Shown here: piece after piece, positions 18,001 to 33,000 of the stretch
Layout of the letters: every line of letters begins with the position of its first letter
Numbering within the stretch: the stretch's first letter is position 1
NCBI GenBank assembly: GCA_030693145.1
Contig: JAUYBI010000041.1
Span: 10,228 to 74,227, forward strand
Direction of reading: 5' to 3'
DNA from: Candidatus Omnitrophota bacterium
Lineage (GTDB): Bacteria > Omnitrophota > Gorgyraeia > Gygaellales > Profunditerraquicolaceae
Length of the DNA stretch: 64,000 bases
Program-made: the position numbers and the translations under genes
The notes under the pieces: model-generated
Seen by the model: only the letters and a program-made list of their open reading frames with translations
Told to the model about the DNA's origin: nothing
Databases searched by the model: none

Positions 18001-21000
18001 CAAATACAAGCAATAAAGAGCCTAAGGATATTGTTGGAGATTATATGAAATTGGGCTGTCGAGCTGTTTTAGCCCATCCTAGTTTCGAACTGTATGCTGT
18101 CAGTGAATTAGAAGTTAAAGATCACGGCAGATTCTGGAATGAAGTTAGCGAATTAGTTAAGAGGGGATTTATTCGCGCCGTAGGCGTAGTGGGTTCAAAA
18201 GAAGAGAGGGAAAAGATAGAGAAAGATGTATATAGCTTAAGAAAACTGGCCGGCAAAACCGAAGATGAATTACCGATGGTTTTCAATAACCCCGATTATC
18301 ATGGCAAGGATTACCCGAAAGATACAAGGGAAAGCATAAGAAAAGGTGTTTTGTATGAAGTGGAAGATGATAAAGGAAAAATAGTAGAGTTTTATTGGGC
18401 GTGGGAAGATGTATCGGCGCCTGATTTTAATAATTATTTCAAGGACGGCGAATTTCTGGCGGAACCATTTGTCAAAAAGGCGCAGGAACAGATAAATAAT
18501 CAAGATTACATCGCTGCCCTAGAAACCCTTAAGGTAGCTTACAGAACTCATCCGTATGGCCAGCGTCTAGAGGAGTTATTTTCGAAAGCCCATAAAGGGA
18601 TTGGTAAAGCTGTATCCAAATATGAAGATGGAGGAACAAAATTCAGCAGTTTATTATACAAAGCAAATACAAACGTAGCATTAAATACGATCGCCAAATT
18701 CAAAATAAATGTTGAGGGGTACAAATTAGTATCGGAAAAAGGTGATCTTGAATCTAGAAAAATATCAATGCTTGAAGAAATTTTACAGTCTTTATTTAGT
18801 GAAGTATTTTTAGCTCAATATTTTCCGAACTGTGTTCCTGCGATTGAAGTAGTATCCGGCCTGGGCAGCCTTTACTGTGCAGATATTTCTAATAATATAA
18901 TCTTTTTAGATAATGAATTATTCCGGTCTGAATCGCTTCTTCTTATGGAATTGGAATCTGGATTTAGGCGTTTCCTACCTAAAATTTTAACGGAAGATTG
19001 TCTTGAAGAGTTGTTAAACATTATTTACGAAACGAATCGTTTCTTGAAATTAGGTGATGAAAAGGGGAACGAAGTGTTAACTACTTTGGGTGAAGGTTTA
19101 GATGTTAAAAACTTCCGTAAAATATTTGAGTTGGCTAGAAGTCAAAGAAAAGTAAATGATGAAGTTATTAATGGTGCTATTAGATATTTAGGATACTTAA
19201 ACATTGATTTAGAGAATTTAATCCAAAATAAAGATGAAAGTTTTGTTAAAGAACAAATATCAGATATAAAGGTGGGATTAGTTAATATTGAGTTAATGAT
19301 GACTTCTTCGTATACTCTTTATCAGTTAAAGAATAATCCGCAGACATTAGAGCATGGCGTGACCTGTATAATTAGGATACCCGAAGGAAGCGAAATCAAT
19401 TCCAAGATAGTTATTTTGAATAATAAGATCGATGAAGTTCTTAAGTCTATCATTGAGCCTGAGCAAAGGCAAATAATTAAATTAAAGAAATATGCGGCAA
19501 ATCAAATCCACTCTACAATAAGTCCAATTGTGCGCGGGCAATATGGCAAAGGAAACGAAGAAAATCAGAGAAAAGGGATTGAAGGTGATTTTGGAAAGGT
19601 TAGAATTTATGAAGCATTAAAGACTATTTCAGGAGTTAAGCCTTTTTGGATATCTTATTCTAAGTCGCCTAAACTTAAGATTAATGGACATGGCGAGATT
19701 TTACTTTGGGGAGATTCAGAGCCTACCCAAGATGGAGTAAATCAATTAGAGAAGCTCCGAGGGGAATTTATTGATAAAGGAAAAGCAAATTTTGACGGTA
19801 GAGATAAAGGTACTAAGATGCATGCGACTGTGGGAACGATTGAAAATTATCATCTCTTAACCCGTGGACAGAGAGAAGGGTTGGCAGGAAAGATAAATAG
19901 TGTATTGGATGATTTAGGTAATTTTGGCTCGTTAGAAGTTTCTGATGTATTCTTTGTTCATTATGGAAACAGAGGATTATTTAAAATTCAAAGCCAGGTT
20001 AAAATTCGGCTAGGAAGCGGCCATAACAGCTTAATGCAACATGAACTTCAGGATCTAGCAGACAAGATTGGAAGCGACTTGTTAAATCAGGGGACAATGG
20101 AGAAGCCTTGTTTGGGTGATTATACAATAAAAATCATGGATTTGTTATTAAAACAAAAAAAAGACGGTGGAAAGAAAGAACGCGTTGAACATAAATTCAG
20201 CACCAGTGGTATTCGCGGCTTAGCTGAAGATTTGACTGATATGCAGTGTTATATCAATGCAAAAGGGTTTATTAATTATTTGATTAAGATAGGGGAACTC
20301 AGTAATGCAATGGCAATCGCGGGAGATTTAAGATATAGCACGCCAAGAATGATGAGAGCGGTTGCCAGGGCGATAGAAGACAGCGGTTTGAAGGTGGTTA
20401 ATTGCGGTTTTATCCCATCACCGGCGCTATTCTATTACGCGATGCTAAAAGGTATCGCCAGTATTATGATTACAGGCAGCCATGTCCCGGTTTTACTTAA
20501 TGGCATAAAATTCAGCAGAAAGATTGGTGAAATCGCAAAGGATGACGAAGTCGGAATTTACGAAGAGATTCTCAAGGTTCGTAAGGAAGAATATGAGAAA
20601 CATAGTAAGAGGCCTTCGGAAAGTTTATTTGATGAGAAGGATATGTTTAAAGTAACTAAACCGTTAGGCGAGATTAATGATGAAGCGCGAAGGTTTTACG
20701 TGGAACGCTATCAGTACGTTTTCTCTTCGGATTGTTTAAAGGGCAAACGCATTGTCGTGGATCAATATAGCGCTGTAGGCAGGGATATATTGGTTGAAAT
20801 ATTGGAGAAGTTGGGCGCTGAAGTTATAGCTGTTGGAAGGTCGGATGAATTCTCCGCCAGGGATACTGAAAATATGCCTCCGGAATTATTGGCTTATTTT
20901 AAACACTTGGCAGAAAAATACAACCATCCGTTTGCTATTATATCAGCGGATGGCGATACTGATAGGCCTATTGTGTGTGATGAAAATGGTAAGTTTTATA

Positions 21001-30000: not shown

Positions 30001-33000
30001 ATGCCGCGCGCGATGATTTAAAAGTTCACTTTGTCTCCAATGTGGATGGCACGCACATCGCGGAAACCTTAAAAGATCTTAATCCCGAGACCACCCTTTT
30101 CATTATTGCTTCTAAAACCTTTACTACCCAGGAAACTATGGCCAACGCTAATACAGCAAAAGAGTGGTTTATAAAAAATGCGGCAGTCAACGAGAATCGA
30201 AATCGGGATTCTGCCGCGGCGAATATGTTTGAGTTCTGGGATTGGGTAAGCGGGCGTTATTCCTCACATCTAAAACTGCATTTTGTAGCGGTTTCCACGG
30301 CGGAAAAATTAGTTGAAGAATTCGGAATTAATACCGACAATATGTTTGAATTCTGGGATTGGGTAGGCGGACGTTATTCTTCCTGGTCTGTCATCGGCCT
30401 CTCTATCGCCTGCTATATCGGTTTTGATAATTTTAAAGAATTGCTCTCCGGCGCTCATGCCATGGATCTGCACTTCAGGAATACGCCTTTTGAGAAAAAC
30501 ATTCCTGTAATCCTGGCGCTTTTAGGCGTTTGGTACAATAATTTCTTCAGAGCCCAGTCGCACGTCCTTCTGCCTTACGATCAGCATCTGCATCGTTTTG
30601 CCGCCTATTTCCAGCAGGGCGATATGGAATCAAACGGCAAGAATGTGGGTAGAGACGGCAAGCTGGTAGATTATCAGACTGGGCCGGTTGTCTGGGGCGA
30701 GCCGGGCACCAACGGCCAGCATGCCTTTTATCAATTGATTCATCAGGGCACGAAATTGATTCCTGCGGATTTTATCGCCTTTGCCCAAAGAAGCAGCCAT
30801 GAGTTTGATAAATACGAAGAGTTAAAGGCGCGCTTAGACGAACATCACAAAATATTACTTTCCAATTTCTTTGCCCAGCCGGAAGCTTTGATGAAAGGTA
30901 AAACCGTCCAAGAAGTTGAAGAAGAATTTAGAAAAGAAAATGCCAAGTTAAAAGAGAAGGGTAAACCCGAATTAAGCGAGGAAGAAATCTCTCGGCTTAC
31001 GCCTTTTAAGGTCTTTACAGGTAACCGCCCGACCAATTCTATCCTGGTTAAGAAGCTCACTCCCTATACGCTCGGTATGCTCATCGCGATGTATGAACAT
31101 AAGATTTTCGTGCAGGGCGTAATCTGGAATATCTACAGTTTTGACCAGTGGGGTGTAGAATTTGGTAAAAAGCTTGCCAAAGGCATCCTAAACTTAGACC
31201 CCGATCATTATTTGGATCAGCTTGAGCCAGGAACTGTTGTAACCGGACACGACTCCTCAACCAATGGCCTTATTAATGCTTATAAGGATATGCTGGACGG
31301 TTCTAAAGACGGCGGCAATGTTACAGAAGAAAGAGAAATTTTGTTTCAATTTAGAAAGAATCACAAAATAAGAAAATATGTAAGATATCTGATGCGATTT
31401 TGTTTCGAGCAATTTGAGGTAAGGCGAGTTGATGTCAATAGGATGATTTATATTATTTTTCAATCAGAACACAGCAGTTTTGAAGGAGTTAGAGAAGCTC
31501 TTTATGAGGCTGGTTTTAATTGGAAAAATAAGGAAAATATTTACAACAAGATTTATAGCAAATACAGTAGAGAAACAGCGCCTTTTGTAAAATACAACAT
31601 TTTAAAAGAATATATTCAGCCAAAAGGATTTGGTTCAGATTCGGTGATTATAGACATAGGTTGTGGTGATCTTGCCATCGCAAAACAGCTTATTAAGGAT
31701 ATGCGCACGCGTATCCCTAAAGACTATTTACCTACAATATATGGTATAGATTTTCCAGAGCCGCCAAAAACAACAGGGGACGATAAGATTAAATACAAAC
31801 AGCAGAATGAAAATAATGCTGGTAGGGTTACGATGGACGAAGAGGTAAAGGCCGATAGGATATGGATAATTTCCGCATTGCATCATATGCCTAAAGAAGT
31901 AATGGCTTCTATTTTAAAAGAAGCTTACCGCTTACTTAAAGCTGATGGCGAATTAATCGTGTTTGAGGACGTTGTTTTGGAATCAAAAGAACCGAAATTT
32001 AATGAAAAGAAATTAGCTAAAGGCAGGGTAAATAAGCTTTCAGAGGAAGAGCGCAGGATTGCTTTTACTATCTTTGATTGGCACGCTAATTGCGTTGTCG
32101 GTGGGCATGGTTACGTGCCTATGCCGGGAAATTATTATACAGAAAATAAATGGATTCAGGTATTTTCTGAAGCGGGATTCAGCGTAGAAGATTCAGATTA
32201 TATCGGTGTATATAAGAAAAAGTTTAGCAATTTGCCGCATTCAATCTTTATATTAAAAAAGAAAGACGGCGGTAAAACTGGAAAAGAGCTTGTCCAAAAT
32301 TTTAATAAAAGCTATGAGGAGTATTTGCAAAAAGTTGAACATGTTGAATTATCTGAATCGGTTTTGAAAGAAGTAGCCAGAAAAATAAGAAATAACCAAA
32401 AGGAAAGCAAAAACAAGATTTATGTTGTGGCAATCGACGGTAATTCAGGGGCTTTTAAGAGCACTGCCGCAAAGAAGATTGCTAGGTTAATCCGGAAATC
32501 AGGAATTAGAGCAATAGTGATTCATCGGGATTGGTTTATTGATGATCGGGATGCCAGATATGAAAGAATAGATGAAGCCCTGAAAAACAAAGAACTTATT
32601 TATAATGATGAAGAGATTTATCTACGGAAGCCCAAATTCGTTCATGAAGTATTAAGGAGTCTAAAAAGATTGAAGAGAAATTTAAACAAAGAAGTAAGGC
32701 TAAAATTTACCGAACTTTACAGTAAATACAAGGGAGGAAAATTAGTAAAGAAAGTATCCAAAAAAATCTCAAAAGGAACAGTTGTAATCATAGAGGGAAA
32801 TTACTTGTTAAAGAAAGAATGGCTTAAATATTTTGATTATAAGATTGTTATGTTGGCAAAGCCGTCGATTGGCCTTGAGCGCAGATTAAAAAGGGATTCG
32901 CATACTCACAAAGACGAAGTAAAGAAGATGTTTTTAAGGGTTAATACTCCTTCTTATTTTAAATATTTAAGGAAAGAAAAACCAGAAGTCGCGGCTAACC

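What the first reader, a model, noticed from the sequence alone, without database searches (positions are those of the whole stretch)
20190..31320. Central carbon block fused in-frame: phosphoglucomutase, SIS isomerase, PGI, AroE-like, 6PGDH-like, 6-phosphogluconolactonase, PGI again
Glycolysis-entry and oxidative pentose-phosphate enzymes are among the most conserved stand-alone housekeeping genes. Finding them as consecutive domains of one ORF, with PGI duplicated and no G6PDH noticed, is highly unusual. Motifs appear intact: PGI signature 2, the 6PGL FWSDER/GADGHT motifs, the PGM Ser and Mg loops.
Basis: partly seen in the sequence, partly recalled or inferred. Interest (0 to 1): 0.75.

Follow-up and report, generated by a model that had tools for sequence, protein, structure and literature searches.

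The report
Giant multi-enzyme gene punctuated by DGG
The sugar-metabolism enzymes are real and truly fused, but they are one stretch of a single gene longer than 64 kb, of a kind already described in Omnitrophota bacteria; its protein-sized units are separated by a recurring Asp-Gly-Gly motif that may mark where the giant chain is cut into ordinary enzymes.

Summary
The whole 64,000-nt window is one stop-free frame of 21,332 codons that is open at both ends. The finding (nt 20190-31320) is a slice holding a phosphohexomutase, a divergent short PGI-like unit, two intact long-type PGIs, and an AroE-like/6PGDH/6PGL unit. The two PGIs are 82% identical with dN/dS 0.15. No G6PDH is present. The nearest relatives are Candidatus Omnitrophota fragments, including a 6,219-aa partial protein with the same triple unit at 53% identity. 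Giant Omnitrophota ORFs carrying GPI and PGM domains, including a 'multi-enzyme metabolic' class, were described in 2023-2026 papers and preprints, so the fused block is a new member of a known kind.

I did not find the following reported. The tripeptide DGG occurs 53 times (5.8 expected) and never inside a Pfam domain. It cuts the chain into units with a median length of 285 aa, and unit ends match the native termini of stand-alone enzymes. The Omnitrophota relative shares DGG. Other relatives carry different recurring motifs at the same boundaries ([AS]SP[LIV], G[LV]EE, RSE[VM]R).

My best reading (probability about 0.5) is a cellular polyprotein with lineage-specific processing sites. No protease lies in the window, and cleavage is untested.

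The parts
3..63998 (+). Single stop-free reading frame (21,332 codons), open at both window ends. It is a segment of a giant multi-enzyme ORF.
   Evidence: 0 stops; other frames 712-2,294. Searches find about 30 different Pfam families tiled along it.
20163..20171 (+). DGG junction (GACGGTGGA) upstream of the PGM unit.
20172..21806 (+). Unit aa 6724-7268 (545 aa): alpha-D-phosphohexomutase (PGM/PMM domains I-IV). The Ser loop TGSHVP, metal loop DGDTDR and phosphate loop RPSGTAP are present. Substrate specificity is unresolved.
   Evidence: four Pfam domains above gathering scores. (best match Arch_GlmM, 173.7 bits against a cutoff of 439). (45-52% identity to PGM-PMI fusion proteins; many of the named ones are Omnitrophota).
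21807..21815 (+). DGG junction.
21816..24107 (+). Unit aa 7272-8035 (764 aa): about 215 aa at the N-terminus with no match, followed by a divergent short-type PGI-family (SIS-fold) domain.
   Evidence: Thermus PGI 1zzg, E=1e-9. (transaldolase/PGI model NF007080, 154.7 bits against 712). (homologous unit in P0122, also bounded by DGG).
24108..24124 (+). DGG junction, and the left copy of an exact 17-nt direct repeat GACGGCGGCTCCTTTGA.
   Evidence: (family D15).
24117..25907 (+). Unit aa 8039-8635 (597 aa): PGI1, an intact long-type glucose-6-phosphate isomerase.
   Evidence: NF001211, 847.7 bits against 492, model positions 6-541 of 544. (78% identity to an Omnitrophica PGI).
25908..25931 (+). 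Double junction DGG-SF-DGG. It holds the right copy of the 17-nt direct repeat (25908-25924).
25932..29483 (+). Unit aa 8644-9827 (1,184 aa) with no internal DGG. It holds an AroE-like dehydrogenase (about nt 26013-26840), 6-phosphogluconate dehydrogenase (about nt 27222-28484) and 6-phosphogluconolactonase (about nt 28782-29408).
   Evidence: the same three-enzyme unit, bounded by DGG on both sides, occurs in P0126 (Omnitrophota, 53% identity over 1,170 aa).
29484..29492 (+). DGG junction directly before the native PGI N-terminus (DGG|[12 protein letters not shown]).
   Evidence: the upstream flank through residue 29, the motif's Asp, has pLDDT below 50; ordered structure begins a few residues after the motif.
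29493..31307 (+). Unit aa 9831-10435 (605 aa): PGI2, a paralogue of PGI1 (82% aa identity, dN/dS 0.15). It carries an in-frame 24-aa insertion created by an internal 54-nt duplication (30212-30265 and 30329-30382).
   Evidence: 815 bits against 492; family D7.
31308..31316 (+). DGG junction about 5 aa after the native PGI C-terminus.
   Evidence: inside the pLDDT<50 segment at model residues 634-652.
31317..35801 (+). The next DGG-bounded units: a SAM-methyltransferase unit found only in giant-gene fragments (31317-32264), PRK + ARMT1-like phosphatase (32274-34448) and a hexokinase unit of 448 aa (34458-35801).

Best explanation
Shown: the block is a slice of one giant gene (>64 kb, >21,332 codons) of the type described in Candidatus Omnitrophota. 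Dozens of ordinary enzymes, mostly of sugar-phosphate metabolism, plus some membrane segments further downstream, are encoded head to tail without stop codons. Shown: the chain is punctuated by the tripeptide Asp-Gly-Gly. DGG lies in polar stretches between domains and never inside one. It divides the chain into units of normal protein size, and the unit ends coincide with the native N- and C-termini of stand-alone homologues. Shown: an Omnitrophota relative keeps DGG at the same unit boundaries, while other relatives have a different recurring short motif at those same boundaries. Inferred: the giant product is a cellular polyprotein. DGG, and the other motifs in other lineages, is the recognition site of a dedicated endopeptidase that co-evolves with it. 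That enzyme is most likely a double-glycine (C39-type) cysteine peptidase of the kind reported near the N-termini of such giants. Cleavage after Gly-Gly would release free PGM, PGI, hexokinase, the AroE-like/6PGDH/6PGL fusion and the rest in fixed 1:1 stoichiometry. The enzymes use phosphorylated sugars and NAD(P) and lie in a 13,800-aa stretch with no transmembrane segment, so they probably act in the cytoplasm. New units are added or duplicated by recombination at the junctions, as for PGI1/PGI2.
For: Giant ORF. Domain tiling. Omnitrophota affinity: (many Omnitrophota among the PGM hits), (P0126 = MCX5708145.1, Candidatus Omnitrophota, an 18.6-kb ORF running off a 20.7-kb contig). Kind already described.

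Punctuation. DGG occurs 53 times against 5.8 expected and is by far the most enriched recurrent tripeptide (9.2x; the next among those seen at least 12 times is 3.9x). The maximum in 200 shuffles is 15. None of the 53 sites lies inside a Pfam envelope, and envelopes cover about 25% of the chain, so P is about 2e-7 by my arithmetic. Of the 52 complete units, the median length is 284.5 aa. The flanks are more polar than random positions (0.647 against 0.561 +/- 0.016).

Unit ends equal native termini. This holds for PGI (DGG|[12 protein letters not shown] aligns with the start of the PGI sequence in the Vibrio structure 3hjb), for hexokinase and PGM, and for the stand-alone AroE-like protein P0129 and 6PGLs P0133/P0137, which end at our unit boundaries. 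Both DGGs flanking PGI2 sit at or in unstructured flanks with pLDDT below 50.

Conservation and dialects. P0126 has 16 DGG against 1.55 expected, and KDGG 10 against 0.12, with the triple unit bounded exactly as ours. P0122 has DGG at the homologous end of the methyltransferase unit, where P0121 has ASPL; [AS]SPL occurs 7 times in P0121. At the PGI boundaries P0277 has SSPL|FPRINP... and ...GSSPV, and P0278 has RSEVRED / RSEMR. At the start of the AroE unit P0128 has GSSPV. P0150 has G[LV]EE 9 times, bracketing its 6PGL.

Negative control: 120 ordinary PGM fusion proteins have 26 DGG against 63 expected.

Protease link, from the literature only: C39 and S8 peptidase domains are common in these giants, and cleavage points are stated to be unknown.

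Junction-centred evolution: an exact 17-nt repeat flanks PGI1, and stub copies occur after DGG. Unit order differs between this window and P0126.
Against: No peptidase domain was detected in the 21,332 aa of the window or in the 6,219-aa relative. The link to a C39 enzyme therefore rests on literature about other giants.

The canonical double-glycine leader (an amphipathic helix with hydrophobic residues at -4, -7 and -12) is absent. Only D-G-G itself is conserved, with a weak preference for K/R at the preceding position.

Not every domain boundary carries DGG. The B12-rSAM/DegT unit is 1,835 aa, and AroE/6PGDH/6PGL has no internal site.

No proteomic or other experimental evidence of cleavage exists. 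The 2026 preprint treats the giants as single membrane-anchored polypeptides.

The structure model is only moderate (pLDDT 67), so the evidence that the linkers are disordered is soft. The 'dialect' motifs in the short fragments rest on few occurrences each.
Confidence: 0.5

Rival explanations
1. The chain is an uncleaved giant multi-enzyme scaffold. It stays in one piece, anchored in the membrane by its downstream transmembrane segments. DGG is only a favoured flexible hinge, a domain cap, or a docking or modification motif between modules. The two PGI copies could then pair in cis to form the obligate PGI dimer.
For: The published view of these proteins is a single membrane-anchored polypeptide. 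No protease is present in the window. Several adjacent enzymes have no DGG between them. The PGI duplication would supply a dimer partner within one chain (dimeric PGI is established knowledge). TM-like segments occur only after aa 13,821.
Against: A hinge needs no fixed sequence, yet one exact tripeptide recurs 53 times in otherwise unrelated contexts. Relatives replace it at the same boundaries with other equally stereotyped motifs, which points to a sequence-specific reader. Paired DGGs separated by only 2-28 aa make little sense as hinges. 6PGDH, which is also dimeric, is not duplicated. The relative P0126 shows no PGI units next to its triple unit.
Confidence: 0.3
2. The motif is primarily a nucleotide-level feature: a microhomology or scar (GACGGCGG) left by, or used for, in-frame recombination. 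That recombination inserts, duplicates and shuffles gene-sized cassettes within giant genes. On this reading the peptide DGG is a by-product.
For: GACGGCGG encodes 30 of the 53 sites, although GAT makes up 77% of Asp codons overall. The same bias is seen in the relative's gene. An exact 17-nt direct repeat flanks PGI1, and stub copies of unit starts follow DGG. Unit order is shuffled between this window and P0126.
Against: All synonymous codon combinations occur (18 different 9-mers). Most of the bias is a general context effect: Asp before any Gly is GAC in 48% of cases, and the first Gly of non-junction GG is GGC in 54%. The residual Fisher p values are 0.03 and 0.09. The motif is kept as a peptide at 53% protein identity, where synonymous sites should be saturated. 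This reading and the cleavage reading are not mutually exclusive.
Confidence: 0.12
3. The sequence is an artefact: an assembly chimera, an artificial concatenation of coding sequences, or a decaying pseudogene array.
For: The source contig could not be found in any searchable collection. PGI2 carries an internal duplication.
Against: There is no stop in 21,332 codons, against 712-2,294 in the other frames. The PGI copies are under purifying selection (dN/dS 0.15). Curated equivalog scores are passed. An independent NCBI MAG contig has the same architecture and the same punctuation. The phenomenon has been reported repeatedly from long-read complete genomes.
Confidence: 0.02

Closest known systems
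Omnitrophota giant genes: 'Archaeovorin'-type (West-Roberts et al. 2023, bioRxiv 10.1101/2023.11.21.568195), giant ORFs of Seymour et al. 2023 (PMC10066038), and the 'multi-enzyme metabolic cluster' class of Nielsen & Lui 2026 (bioRxiv 10.64898/2026.06.07.730766)
   Same: A single ORF of tens of kilobases. Many unrelated Pfam families are tiled along it, including PGM/PMM, GPI, hexokinase, methyltransferases, radical SAM and HEAT. Transmembrane segments are interspersed. The nearest homologues are labelled Omnitrophota. Sequence conservation between giants is poor.
   Different: The papers I read describe no junction motif, and one states that cleavage points are unknown. The N-terminal C39/S8 peptidase and the SecA-DEAD domains they report are not in this window, because the ORF ends lie outside it. 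The duplicated PGI flanking an AroE-like/6PGDH/6PGL unit is specific to this gene.
Viral polyproteins (picornavirus 3C, flavivirus NS3, coronavirus PLpro with LXGG sites)
   Same: One ORF encodes many mature-protein-sized units. The units are separated by a short recurring motif that differs between lineages and lies in linkers. Short spacer peptides occur between paired sites. A P2-P1 Gly-Gly motif is used by PLpro-type cysteine proteases.
   Different: This is a cellular (bacterial) gene encoding housekeeping-type metabolic enzymes. No protease has been identified and no cleavage shown.
Double-glycine leader peptides cut by C39 peptidase domains (bacteriocin/PCAT systems)
   Same: A Gly-Gly immediately before the proposed scissile bond. 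C39 domains are reported in Omnitrophota giants.
   Different: There is no amphipathic leader with conserved hydrophobic positions. The sites are internal and repeated about 50 times, not a single N-terminal leader. Asp at -3 is not a feature of bacteriocin leaders (my own knowledge).
Polyubiquitin and ubiquitin-fusion precursors processed after Gly-Gly
   Same: Head-to-tail units in one ORF that are released by cleavage after GG.
   Different: The units here are unrelated enzymes, not repeats of one small protein. No ubiquitin-like fold or deubiquitinase has been identified.
Natural fusions of these pathway enzymes: G6PD-6PGL (human H6PD, PDB 8em2; Plasmodium GluPho) and bifunctional transaldolase/PGI (NCBIfam NF007080)
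   Same: Oxidative pentose-phosphate enzymes joined in one polypeptide that works uncleaved. The AroE-like/6PGDH/6PGL unit is probably of this sort.
   Different: Those fusions join two enzymes. This chain has dozens, and it has an AroE-like dehydrogenase where G6PDH would be expected.

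Membership tests
Omnitrophota giant gene, multi-enzyme metabolic class | Uninterrupted ORF encoding at least 10,000 aa | tested here: met
   at least 21,332 codons with no stop, open at both ends.
Omnitrophota giant gene, multi-enzyme metabolic class | Many distinct Pfam families tiled along the chain, with none dominating by copy number | tested here: met
   about 30 families. The highest copy numbers are 2-3 (PGI) and about 4 (methyltransferase).
Omnitrophota giant gene, multi-enzyme metabolic class | Encoded in an Omnitrophota genome | tested here: inconclusive
   The source contig is absent from the GTDB representatives, the JGI metagenomes and IMG/VR. The closest homologues of the PGI, triple and methyltransferase units are labelled Candidatus Omnitrophota/Omnitrophica, and many of the PGM unit's best named hits are too, although its top named hit carries an ANME-1 archaeal label.
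Omnitrophota giant gene, multi-enzyme metabolic class | Transmembrane helices and/or a signal peptide | tested here: met
   10 TM-like segments (Kyte-Doolittle score >= 1.8) between aa 13,821 and 21,071, and none in aa 1-13,800. This was a crude scan. A signal peptide cannot be tested because the N-terminus lies outside the window.
Omnitrophota giant gene, multi-enzyme metabolic class | C39 or S8 peptidase and SecA-DEAD domains (common but not universal) | tested here: not met
   None found within the window. The rest of the ORF is not available.
Glucose-6-phosphate isomerase (NCBIfam NF001211 equivalog) | Score above the curated cutoff over the full model, with catalytic Arg, Glu, His and Lys motifs present | tested here: met
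   PGI1 847.7 bits and PGI2 815 bits against a cutoff of 492. [22 protein letters not shown] and WGVE[LF]GK are conserved. Assigning these motifs to catalytic residues rests on my knowledge of rabbit and human PGI.
6-phosphogluconolactonase (TIGR01198) | Score above the curated cutoff | tested here: met
   146.8 bits against 124.45; matches solved 6PGL structures.
6-phosphogluconate dehydrogenase | Score above the curated cutoff | tested here: met
   subfamily NF007161 scores 279.3 against 271. Equivalog TIGR00872 scores 244.7, below its cutoff of 297.2, so cofactor preference is unresolved; best PDB match is 6vpb, E=5e-42.
Phosphoglucomutase/phosphomannomutase (alpha-D-phosphohexomutase) | Four Pfam domains plus the Ser, metal and phosphate loops; an equivalog-level score for a specific activity | tested here: inconclusive
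   all four domains score above their gathering thresholds, and the loops are present in the sequence; no equivalog cutoff is reached (best 173.7 against 439). It is a superfamily member of unknown specificity.
Shikimate dehydrogenase AroE | Equivalog-level score | tested here: not met
   best score 90.9 bits against a cutoff of 413. Only Pfam Shikimate_dh_N passes (36.2 against 27). The Lys and Asp of the catalytic dyad appear retained (DPYK, MFDG) by my inspection.
Protease-processed polyprotein | A recurrent short motif confined to junctions between mature-protein-sized units | tested here: met
Protease-processed polyprotein | A cognate protease, and demonstrated cleavage products | not testable with these tools
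   No peptidase lies in the window. Testing requires proteomics or biochemistry.
C39 double-glycine substrate | Gly-Gly at P2-P1 preceded by a leader with conserved hydrophobic positions | tested here: not met
   GG is present, but one search shows no hydrophobic periodicity upstream (information <= 0.65 bit per position; K/R favoured at the position before D).

The most novel reading that the evidence does not exclude
Omnitrophota giant ORFs are true cellular polyproteins. A sizeable part of the cell's ordinary metabolic enzymes and membrane proteins is translated as one chain. It is then cut at short junction motifs (DGG here; [AS]SP[LIV], G[LV]EE, RSE[VM]R and DE[QA]SAE in other lineages) by a protease whose specificity co-evolves with the sites. 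This would be a virus-like expression strategy in a bacterium. The junction motif would also serve as the breakpoint for cassette-like gain, loss and duplication of units. As a side possibility, the AroE-like dehydrogenase fused to 6PGDH and 6PGL could be a non-orthologous replacement for the missing G6PDH.
Probability: 0.45. Interest if true: 0.9.

Novelty: new member of a known kind. Interest (0 to 1): 0.66.

Why it matters
Giant Omnitrophota genes are among the largest known, at up to 147,155 aa. Whether their products act as one polypeptide or are cut up is an explicitly open question, and West-Roberts et al. state that nothing is known about cleavage points.

A simple, statistically overwhelming junction motif turns that question into a direct test. 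The motif matches native protein termini, is conserved in a relative, and is replaced by other motifs in other lineages. The test is to search existing proteomes for peptides ending in ...DGG. The motif also allows giants to be split computationally into units for annotation and structure prediction.

If processing is confirmed, it would be the first large-scale polyprotein expression of housekeeping-type enzymes in a cellular organism. It would also change how metabolic potential is inferred for these host-dependent bacteria, since enzymes hidden in giants are easily missed or assigned to the wrong compartment.

If it is refuted, the block is still a documented example of a known class.

Tried and rejected
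(1) Internal Shine-Dalgarno sites. I asked whether DGG reflects GGAGG followed by internal starts. Only 8 of 53 sites contain GGAGG, and no start-codon pattern follows. Rejected.

(2) A purely nucleotide-level motif. The GAC-GGC bias is real, but it is largely explained by context-dependent codon use before Gly. Downgraded to a minor rival.

(3) Alternative genetic codes. The frame has no stop under any of the eight tables tested, so recoding is not an issue.

(4) Finding the source contig or its flanks. An exact 40-mer search found nothing in IMG/VR or the JGI metagenomes. A profile-based search of the GTDB genomes gave only two distant fragments. The metagenome and viral scans gave nothing. 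The ORF ends, total length, neighbouring genes and stand-alone paralogues therefore remain unknown.

(5) Looking for a peptidase. I searched the window and P0126 with Pfam at permissive thresholds and found none.

(6) A first self-BLAST of the whole chain returned nothing for technical reasons. It was redone per unit.

(7) A word-indexed search with a 2,435-aa multi-unit query found only 5 relatives. The exhaustive HMMER search was much more informative.

(8) Literature searches for 'polyprotein' with Omnitrophota, and for C39 / giant protein / cleavage site, found no prior description of junction motifs. The library is incomplete, so prior mention elsewhere cannot be excluded.

Full report
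OBSERVATION. This is correct but understated. Listing ORFs returned no + strand ORF, because the tool omits ORFs that run off the source. A direct translation shows that the + strand frame starting at nt 3 has no stop codon in 21,332 codons. The other five frames have 712-2,294 stops, and the result is the same under eight genetic codes. So the whole window is a piece of a single ORF longer than 64 kb.

Pfam and NCBIfam confirm the domains:
- PGM_PMM I-IV.
- Two full-length long-type PGIs, at 847.7 and 815 bits against an equivalog cutoff of 492.
- Shikimate_dh_N.
- NAD_binding_2 + 6PGD, with the NADP-dependent 6PGDH subfamily at 279.3 against 271.
- 6PGL, at 146.8 against 124.45.

The 'SIS isomerase' is a third, divergent short-type member of the PGI family. 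The catalytic motifs of PGI are intact in both copies. The two copies are 82% identical with dN/dS 0.15, so both are under purifying selection. PGI2 carries an in-frame 24-aa insertion made by a local 54-nt duplication. No G6PDH domain was found anywhere in the window.

THE REST OF THE WINDOW. The same frame encodes many more enzymes:
- a B12-binding radical SAM enzyme, a DegT-type aminotransferase, APS kinase, PHP domains and CofD;
- several SAM methyltransferases;
- PRK/uridine-kinase-like, an ARMT1-like damage-control phosphatase, a two-domain hexokinase and a histidine phosphatase;
- an amidohydrolase, OMPdecase/HUMPS-like and SIS domains, PEMT, HEAT repeats and a CN-hydrolase.

A crude hydropathy scan finds no TM-like segment in aa 1-13,800, which includes the whole finding, and ten between aa 13,821 and 21,071.

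WHAT KIND OF THING IT IS. Several lines point to Omnitrophota.
- The PGM unit is 45-52% identical to 950-1,500-aa PGM fusion proteins.
- A multi-unit query found only five relatives. All are contig-filling fragments labelled Omnitrophota or Endomicrobiales or left unnamed.
- An exhaustive HMMER search with the 1,184-aa AroE-like/6PGDH/6PGL unit found P0126 as best hit. It is a 6,219-aa partial protein (MCX5708145.1, Candidatus Omnitrophota) on a 20.7-kb MAG contig, and its ORF runs off the end of the contig. It has 53% identity over the whole three-enzyme unit.
- PGI1's closest relatives are an Omnitrophica PGI (78%) and two contig-filling fragments (72%). After these come stand-alone PGIs of many phyla at 66-69%.

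The literature describes exactly this class. Giant ORFs over 20 kb are common in Omnitrophota (Seymour 2023). Giants of up to 85,804 aa contain glucose-phosphate isomerase, PGM/PMM, TPI, FBPase and aldolase domains (West-Roberts 2023). A 'multi-enzyme metabolic cluster' class reaches 147,155 aa, with a sugar-metabolism module that includes PGM and hexokinase (Nielsen & Lui 2026). The fused central-carbon block is therefore a new member of a known kind. Recent heterogeneous capture by HGT is not indicated.

THE PUNCTUATION. While reading the translation I noticed DGG at the joints.
- Frequency. DGG occurs 53 times against 5.8 expected. Among tripeptides seen at least 12 times it is by far the most enriched (9.2-fold; the next is 3.9-fold). 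The maximum in 200 shuffles is 15. Of 125 GG dipeptides, 53 are preceded by D.
- Context. Positions around the motif carry almost no information, apart from a weak K/R preference just before D. The sites are therefore not copies of one linker.
- Position. None of the 53 sites lies inside a Pfam envelope. Envelopes cover roughly a quarter of the chain, so P is about 2e-7 by my arithmetic.
- Unit size. The 52 complete units have a median of 284.5 aa, or 324 aa for units of at least 100 aa. The flanks are significantly more polar than random positions.
- Single-enzyme units. Several units are exactly one native-sized enzyme: PGM 545 aa, PGI 597 and 605 aa, hexokinase 448 aa, histidine phosphatase 244 aa and amidohydrolase 437 aa.
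- Termini. The junction before PGI2 reads DGG|[12 protein letters not shown], which aligns with the start of the PGI sequence in the Vibrio structure 3hjb. The junction after it comes about 5 residues past the native C-terminus.
- Stand-alone homologues. The AroE-like unit (P0129, 432 aa) and 6PGL (P0133, P0137) exist as stand-alone proteins that begin and end at our unit boundaries.
- Structure. An alignment-backed AlphaFold model of PGI2 with its flanks (pLDDT 67) shows no ordered structure up to the upstream DGG: residues 1-29 have pLDDT below 50, and residue 29 is the motif's Asp. The downstream DGG (637-639) lies inside another segment with pLDDT below 50.
- Control. 120 ordinary PGM fusion proteins contain 26 DGG against 63 expected.

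CONSERVATION AND 'DIALECTS'. P0126 shares the motif. It has 16 DGG against 1.55 expected and KDGG 10 against 0.12. Its triple unit is bounded by DGG on both sides with none inside, exactly as in the window. P0122 has DGG at the homologous end of the methyltransferase unit and around its short-PGI-like unit.

Other relatives carry a different recurring motif at the same boundaries:
- P0121 has ...FVLKKRKEAA-ASPL where ours has ...FILKKK-DGG, and [AS]SPL occurs 7 times.
- P0277 has LSSPL|FPRINPVETSAW before its PGI and GSSPV after it.
- P0278 has RSEVRED before and RSEMR after its PGI.
- P0128 has GSSPV at the start of the AroE-like unit.
- P0150 has G[LV]EE 9 times (GLEE 7 against 0.1 expected), bracketing its 6PGL as a separate 258-aa unit.
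- P0125 has DE[QA]SA[EQ] 4 times.

So within a gene all junctions share one motif, while orthologous junctions in different genes carry different motifs.

PEPTIDE OR NUCLEOTIDE SIGNAL? Thirty of the 53 sites are GACGGCGG, although GAT is 77% of Asp codons and GGC 31% of Gly codons. The relative's gene shows the same bias. Three observations argue that the constraint is mainly on the peptide. All synonymous variants occur. Asp before any Gly is GAC in 48% of cases, and the first Gly of non-junction GG is GGC in 54%, which fits avoidance of Shine-Dalgarno-like GGAGG. The residual bias is weak (Fisher p = 0.03 and 0.09).

The junctions do look like recombination breakpoints. PGI1 is flanked by an exact 17-nt direct repeat, GACGGCGGCTCCTTTGA, 1,800 nt apart. 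A 28-aa stub after one DGG copies the start of a unit 3.2 kb downstream. PRK and ARMT1 form one unit here but two separate, reordered DGG units in P0126, which also shows no PGI units next to its triple unit.

MECHANISM. The best-supported reading is that the giant product is a polyprotein and that DGG is the recognition site of a dedicated endopeptidase. The supporting evidence is all shown: a stereotyped motif confined to linkers, units of protein size with native termini, conservation in a relative, and lineage-specific replacement.

The cleavage itself and the enzyme are inferred. A C39-type double-glycine cysteine peptidase is the obvious candidate. West-Roberts et al. report C39 (and S8) peptidase domains near the N-termini of full-length giants and speculate about cleavage while noting that cleavage points are unknown. 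PF03412 defines one of the two largest architecture clusters in the 2026 catalogue.

Five points count against the model:
- No peptidase domain lies in this window or in P0126.
- The canonical double-glycine leader is absent.
- Some neighbouring enzymes lack a DGG between them.
- The 2026 preprint interprets the giants as single membrane-anchored chains.
- No experimental evidence exists.

I put the polyprotein-processing model at about 0.5, an uncleaved scaffold with DGG as a hinge or docking motif at about 0.3, a primarily recombinational scar at about 0.1, and artefact at about 0.02.

WHAT COULD NOT BE DONE. The source contig is not in the GTDB representative genomes, the JGI metagenomes or IMG/VR. 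The true ends and length of the ORF, its neighbours, any peptidase, and the presence of stand-alone pgi, pgm, pgl, gnd or zwf copies therefore remain unknown.

VERDICT. The 'highly unusual' fused block is a new member of a documented class of Omnitrophota giant genes. The DGG punctuation, with different dialects in relatives, is the interesting part. I did not find it in the papers read or in the searched library, and it makes the open question of giant-protein processing directly testable.

Noticed in passing
window 24108-24124 and 25908-25924: An exact 17-nt direct repeat, GACGGCGGCTCCTTTGA (encoding DGGSF), flanks the PGI1 unit 1,800 nt apart. This looks like the footprint of a cassette insertion or duplication with breakpoints at the junction motif.
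   Followed up: partly
window 30212-30265 and 30329-30382: An internal 54-nt duplication inside PGI2 repeats NMFEFWDWV(S/G)GRYSS and creates an in-frame 24-aa insertion. The model gives this stretch lower confidence (pLDDT 53-66). Whether PGI2 is still fully active is unknown.
   Followed up: partly
window 12519-12620 and 15753-15854: A 102-nt repeat at 91% identity. A 28-aa mini-unit between two DGGs is a stub copy of the N-terminus of the unit that starts at aa 5256. Nine other very short 'units' (2-77 aa) also lie between closely spaced DGGs.
   Followed up: partly
window 50315-50344, 50906-50935, 51884-51913, 54578-54607: A longer junction variant, (D/G)RS(A/T)R(L/F)DGG, recurs four times in the TM-rich C-terminal third and is conserved at nucleotide level (CGCTCAGCGCGCCTTGACGGCGG). 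In at least one case (nt 51903) it is followed by a basic stretch and a hydrophobic helix that resembles an N-terminal signal anchor (DGG|[25 protein letters not shown]).
   Followed up: no
window 26013-26840 (AroE-like domain within unit 25932-29483): An AroE-like dehydrogenase keeps the Lys/Asp dyad but scores far below the AroE equivalog cutoffs. It is fused to 6PGDH and 6PGL here and in P0126. It also exists as a well-conserved stand-alone protein (P0129, 63% identity). No G6PDH is present in the window. It might be a non-orthologous G6P dehydrogenase, but this is pure speculation.
   Followed up: no
window 34458-35801; 41985-42395; 43218-44210: A two-domain hexokinase (Hexokinase_1/2), which to my knowledge is an uncommon type in bacteria, forms a single 448-aa DGG unit. 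Nearby are an OMPdecase/HUMPS-like unit and a SIS unit, which could be hexulose-phosphate synthase and isomerase (a ribulose-monophosphate shunt).
   Followed up: no
window 7470-10388 and 15768-18626: Two paralogous units are 49% identical over 527 aa and contain PHP domains, one of them preceded by APS kinase. A further distant pair lies at aa 17490-18198 and 18814-19965 (27%). Intragenic duplication is recurrent.
   Followed up: partly
L003 1-2070 and 2063-20719 (GCA_026387435.1 contig JAPLLS010000050.1): The Omnitrophota relative's 6,219-aa ORF is preceded by another open frame. That frame also contains 2 DGG, ends at TAA, and overlaps the ORF's ATG by 8 nt. This is either two tandem punctuated genes or a frameshift splitting one giant.
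   Followed up: partly
whole window: The coding strand is strongly purine-rich throughout. GC skew is about +0.1 to +0.3 in most 2-kb windows (it drops to about 0 in two, 10001-12000 and 22001-24000), and AT skew is mostly positive. G+C is 35-45%.
   Followed up: no
window 27180-27230 (AroE-like/6PGDH boundary, aa about 9060-9075): At this DGG-less internal boundary our sequence has DSSSSF. P0128 has SSFSPV and P0132 has GSSPI at the same place. This may be a decayed junction of the 'SSP' dialect.
   Followed up: no
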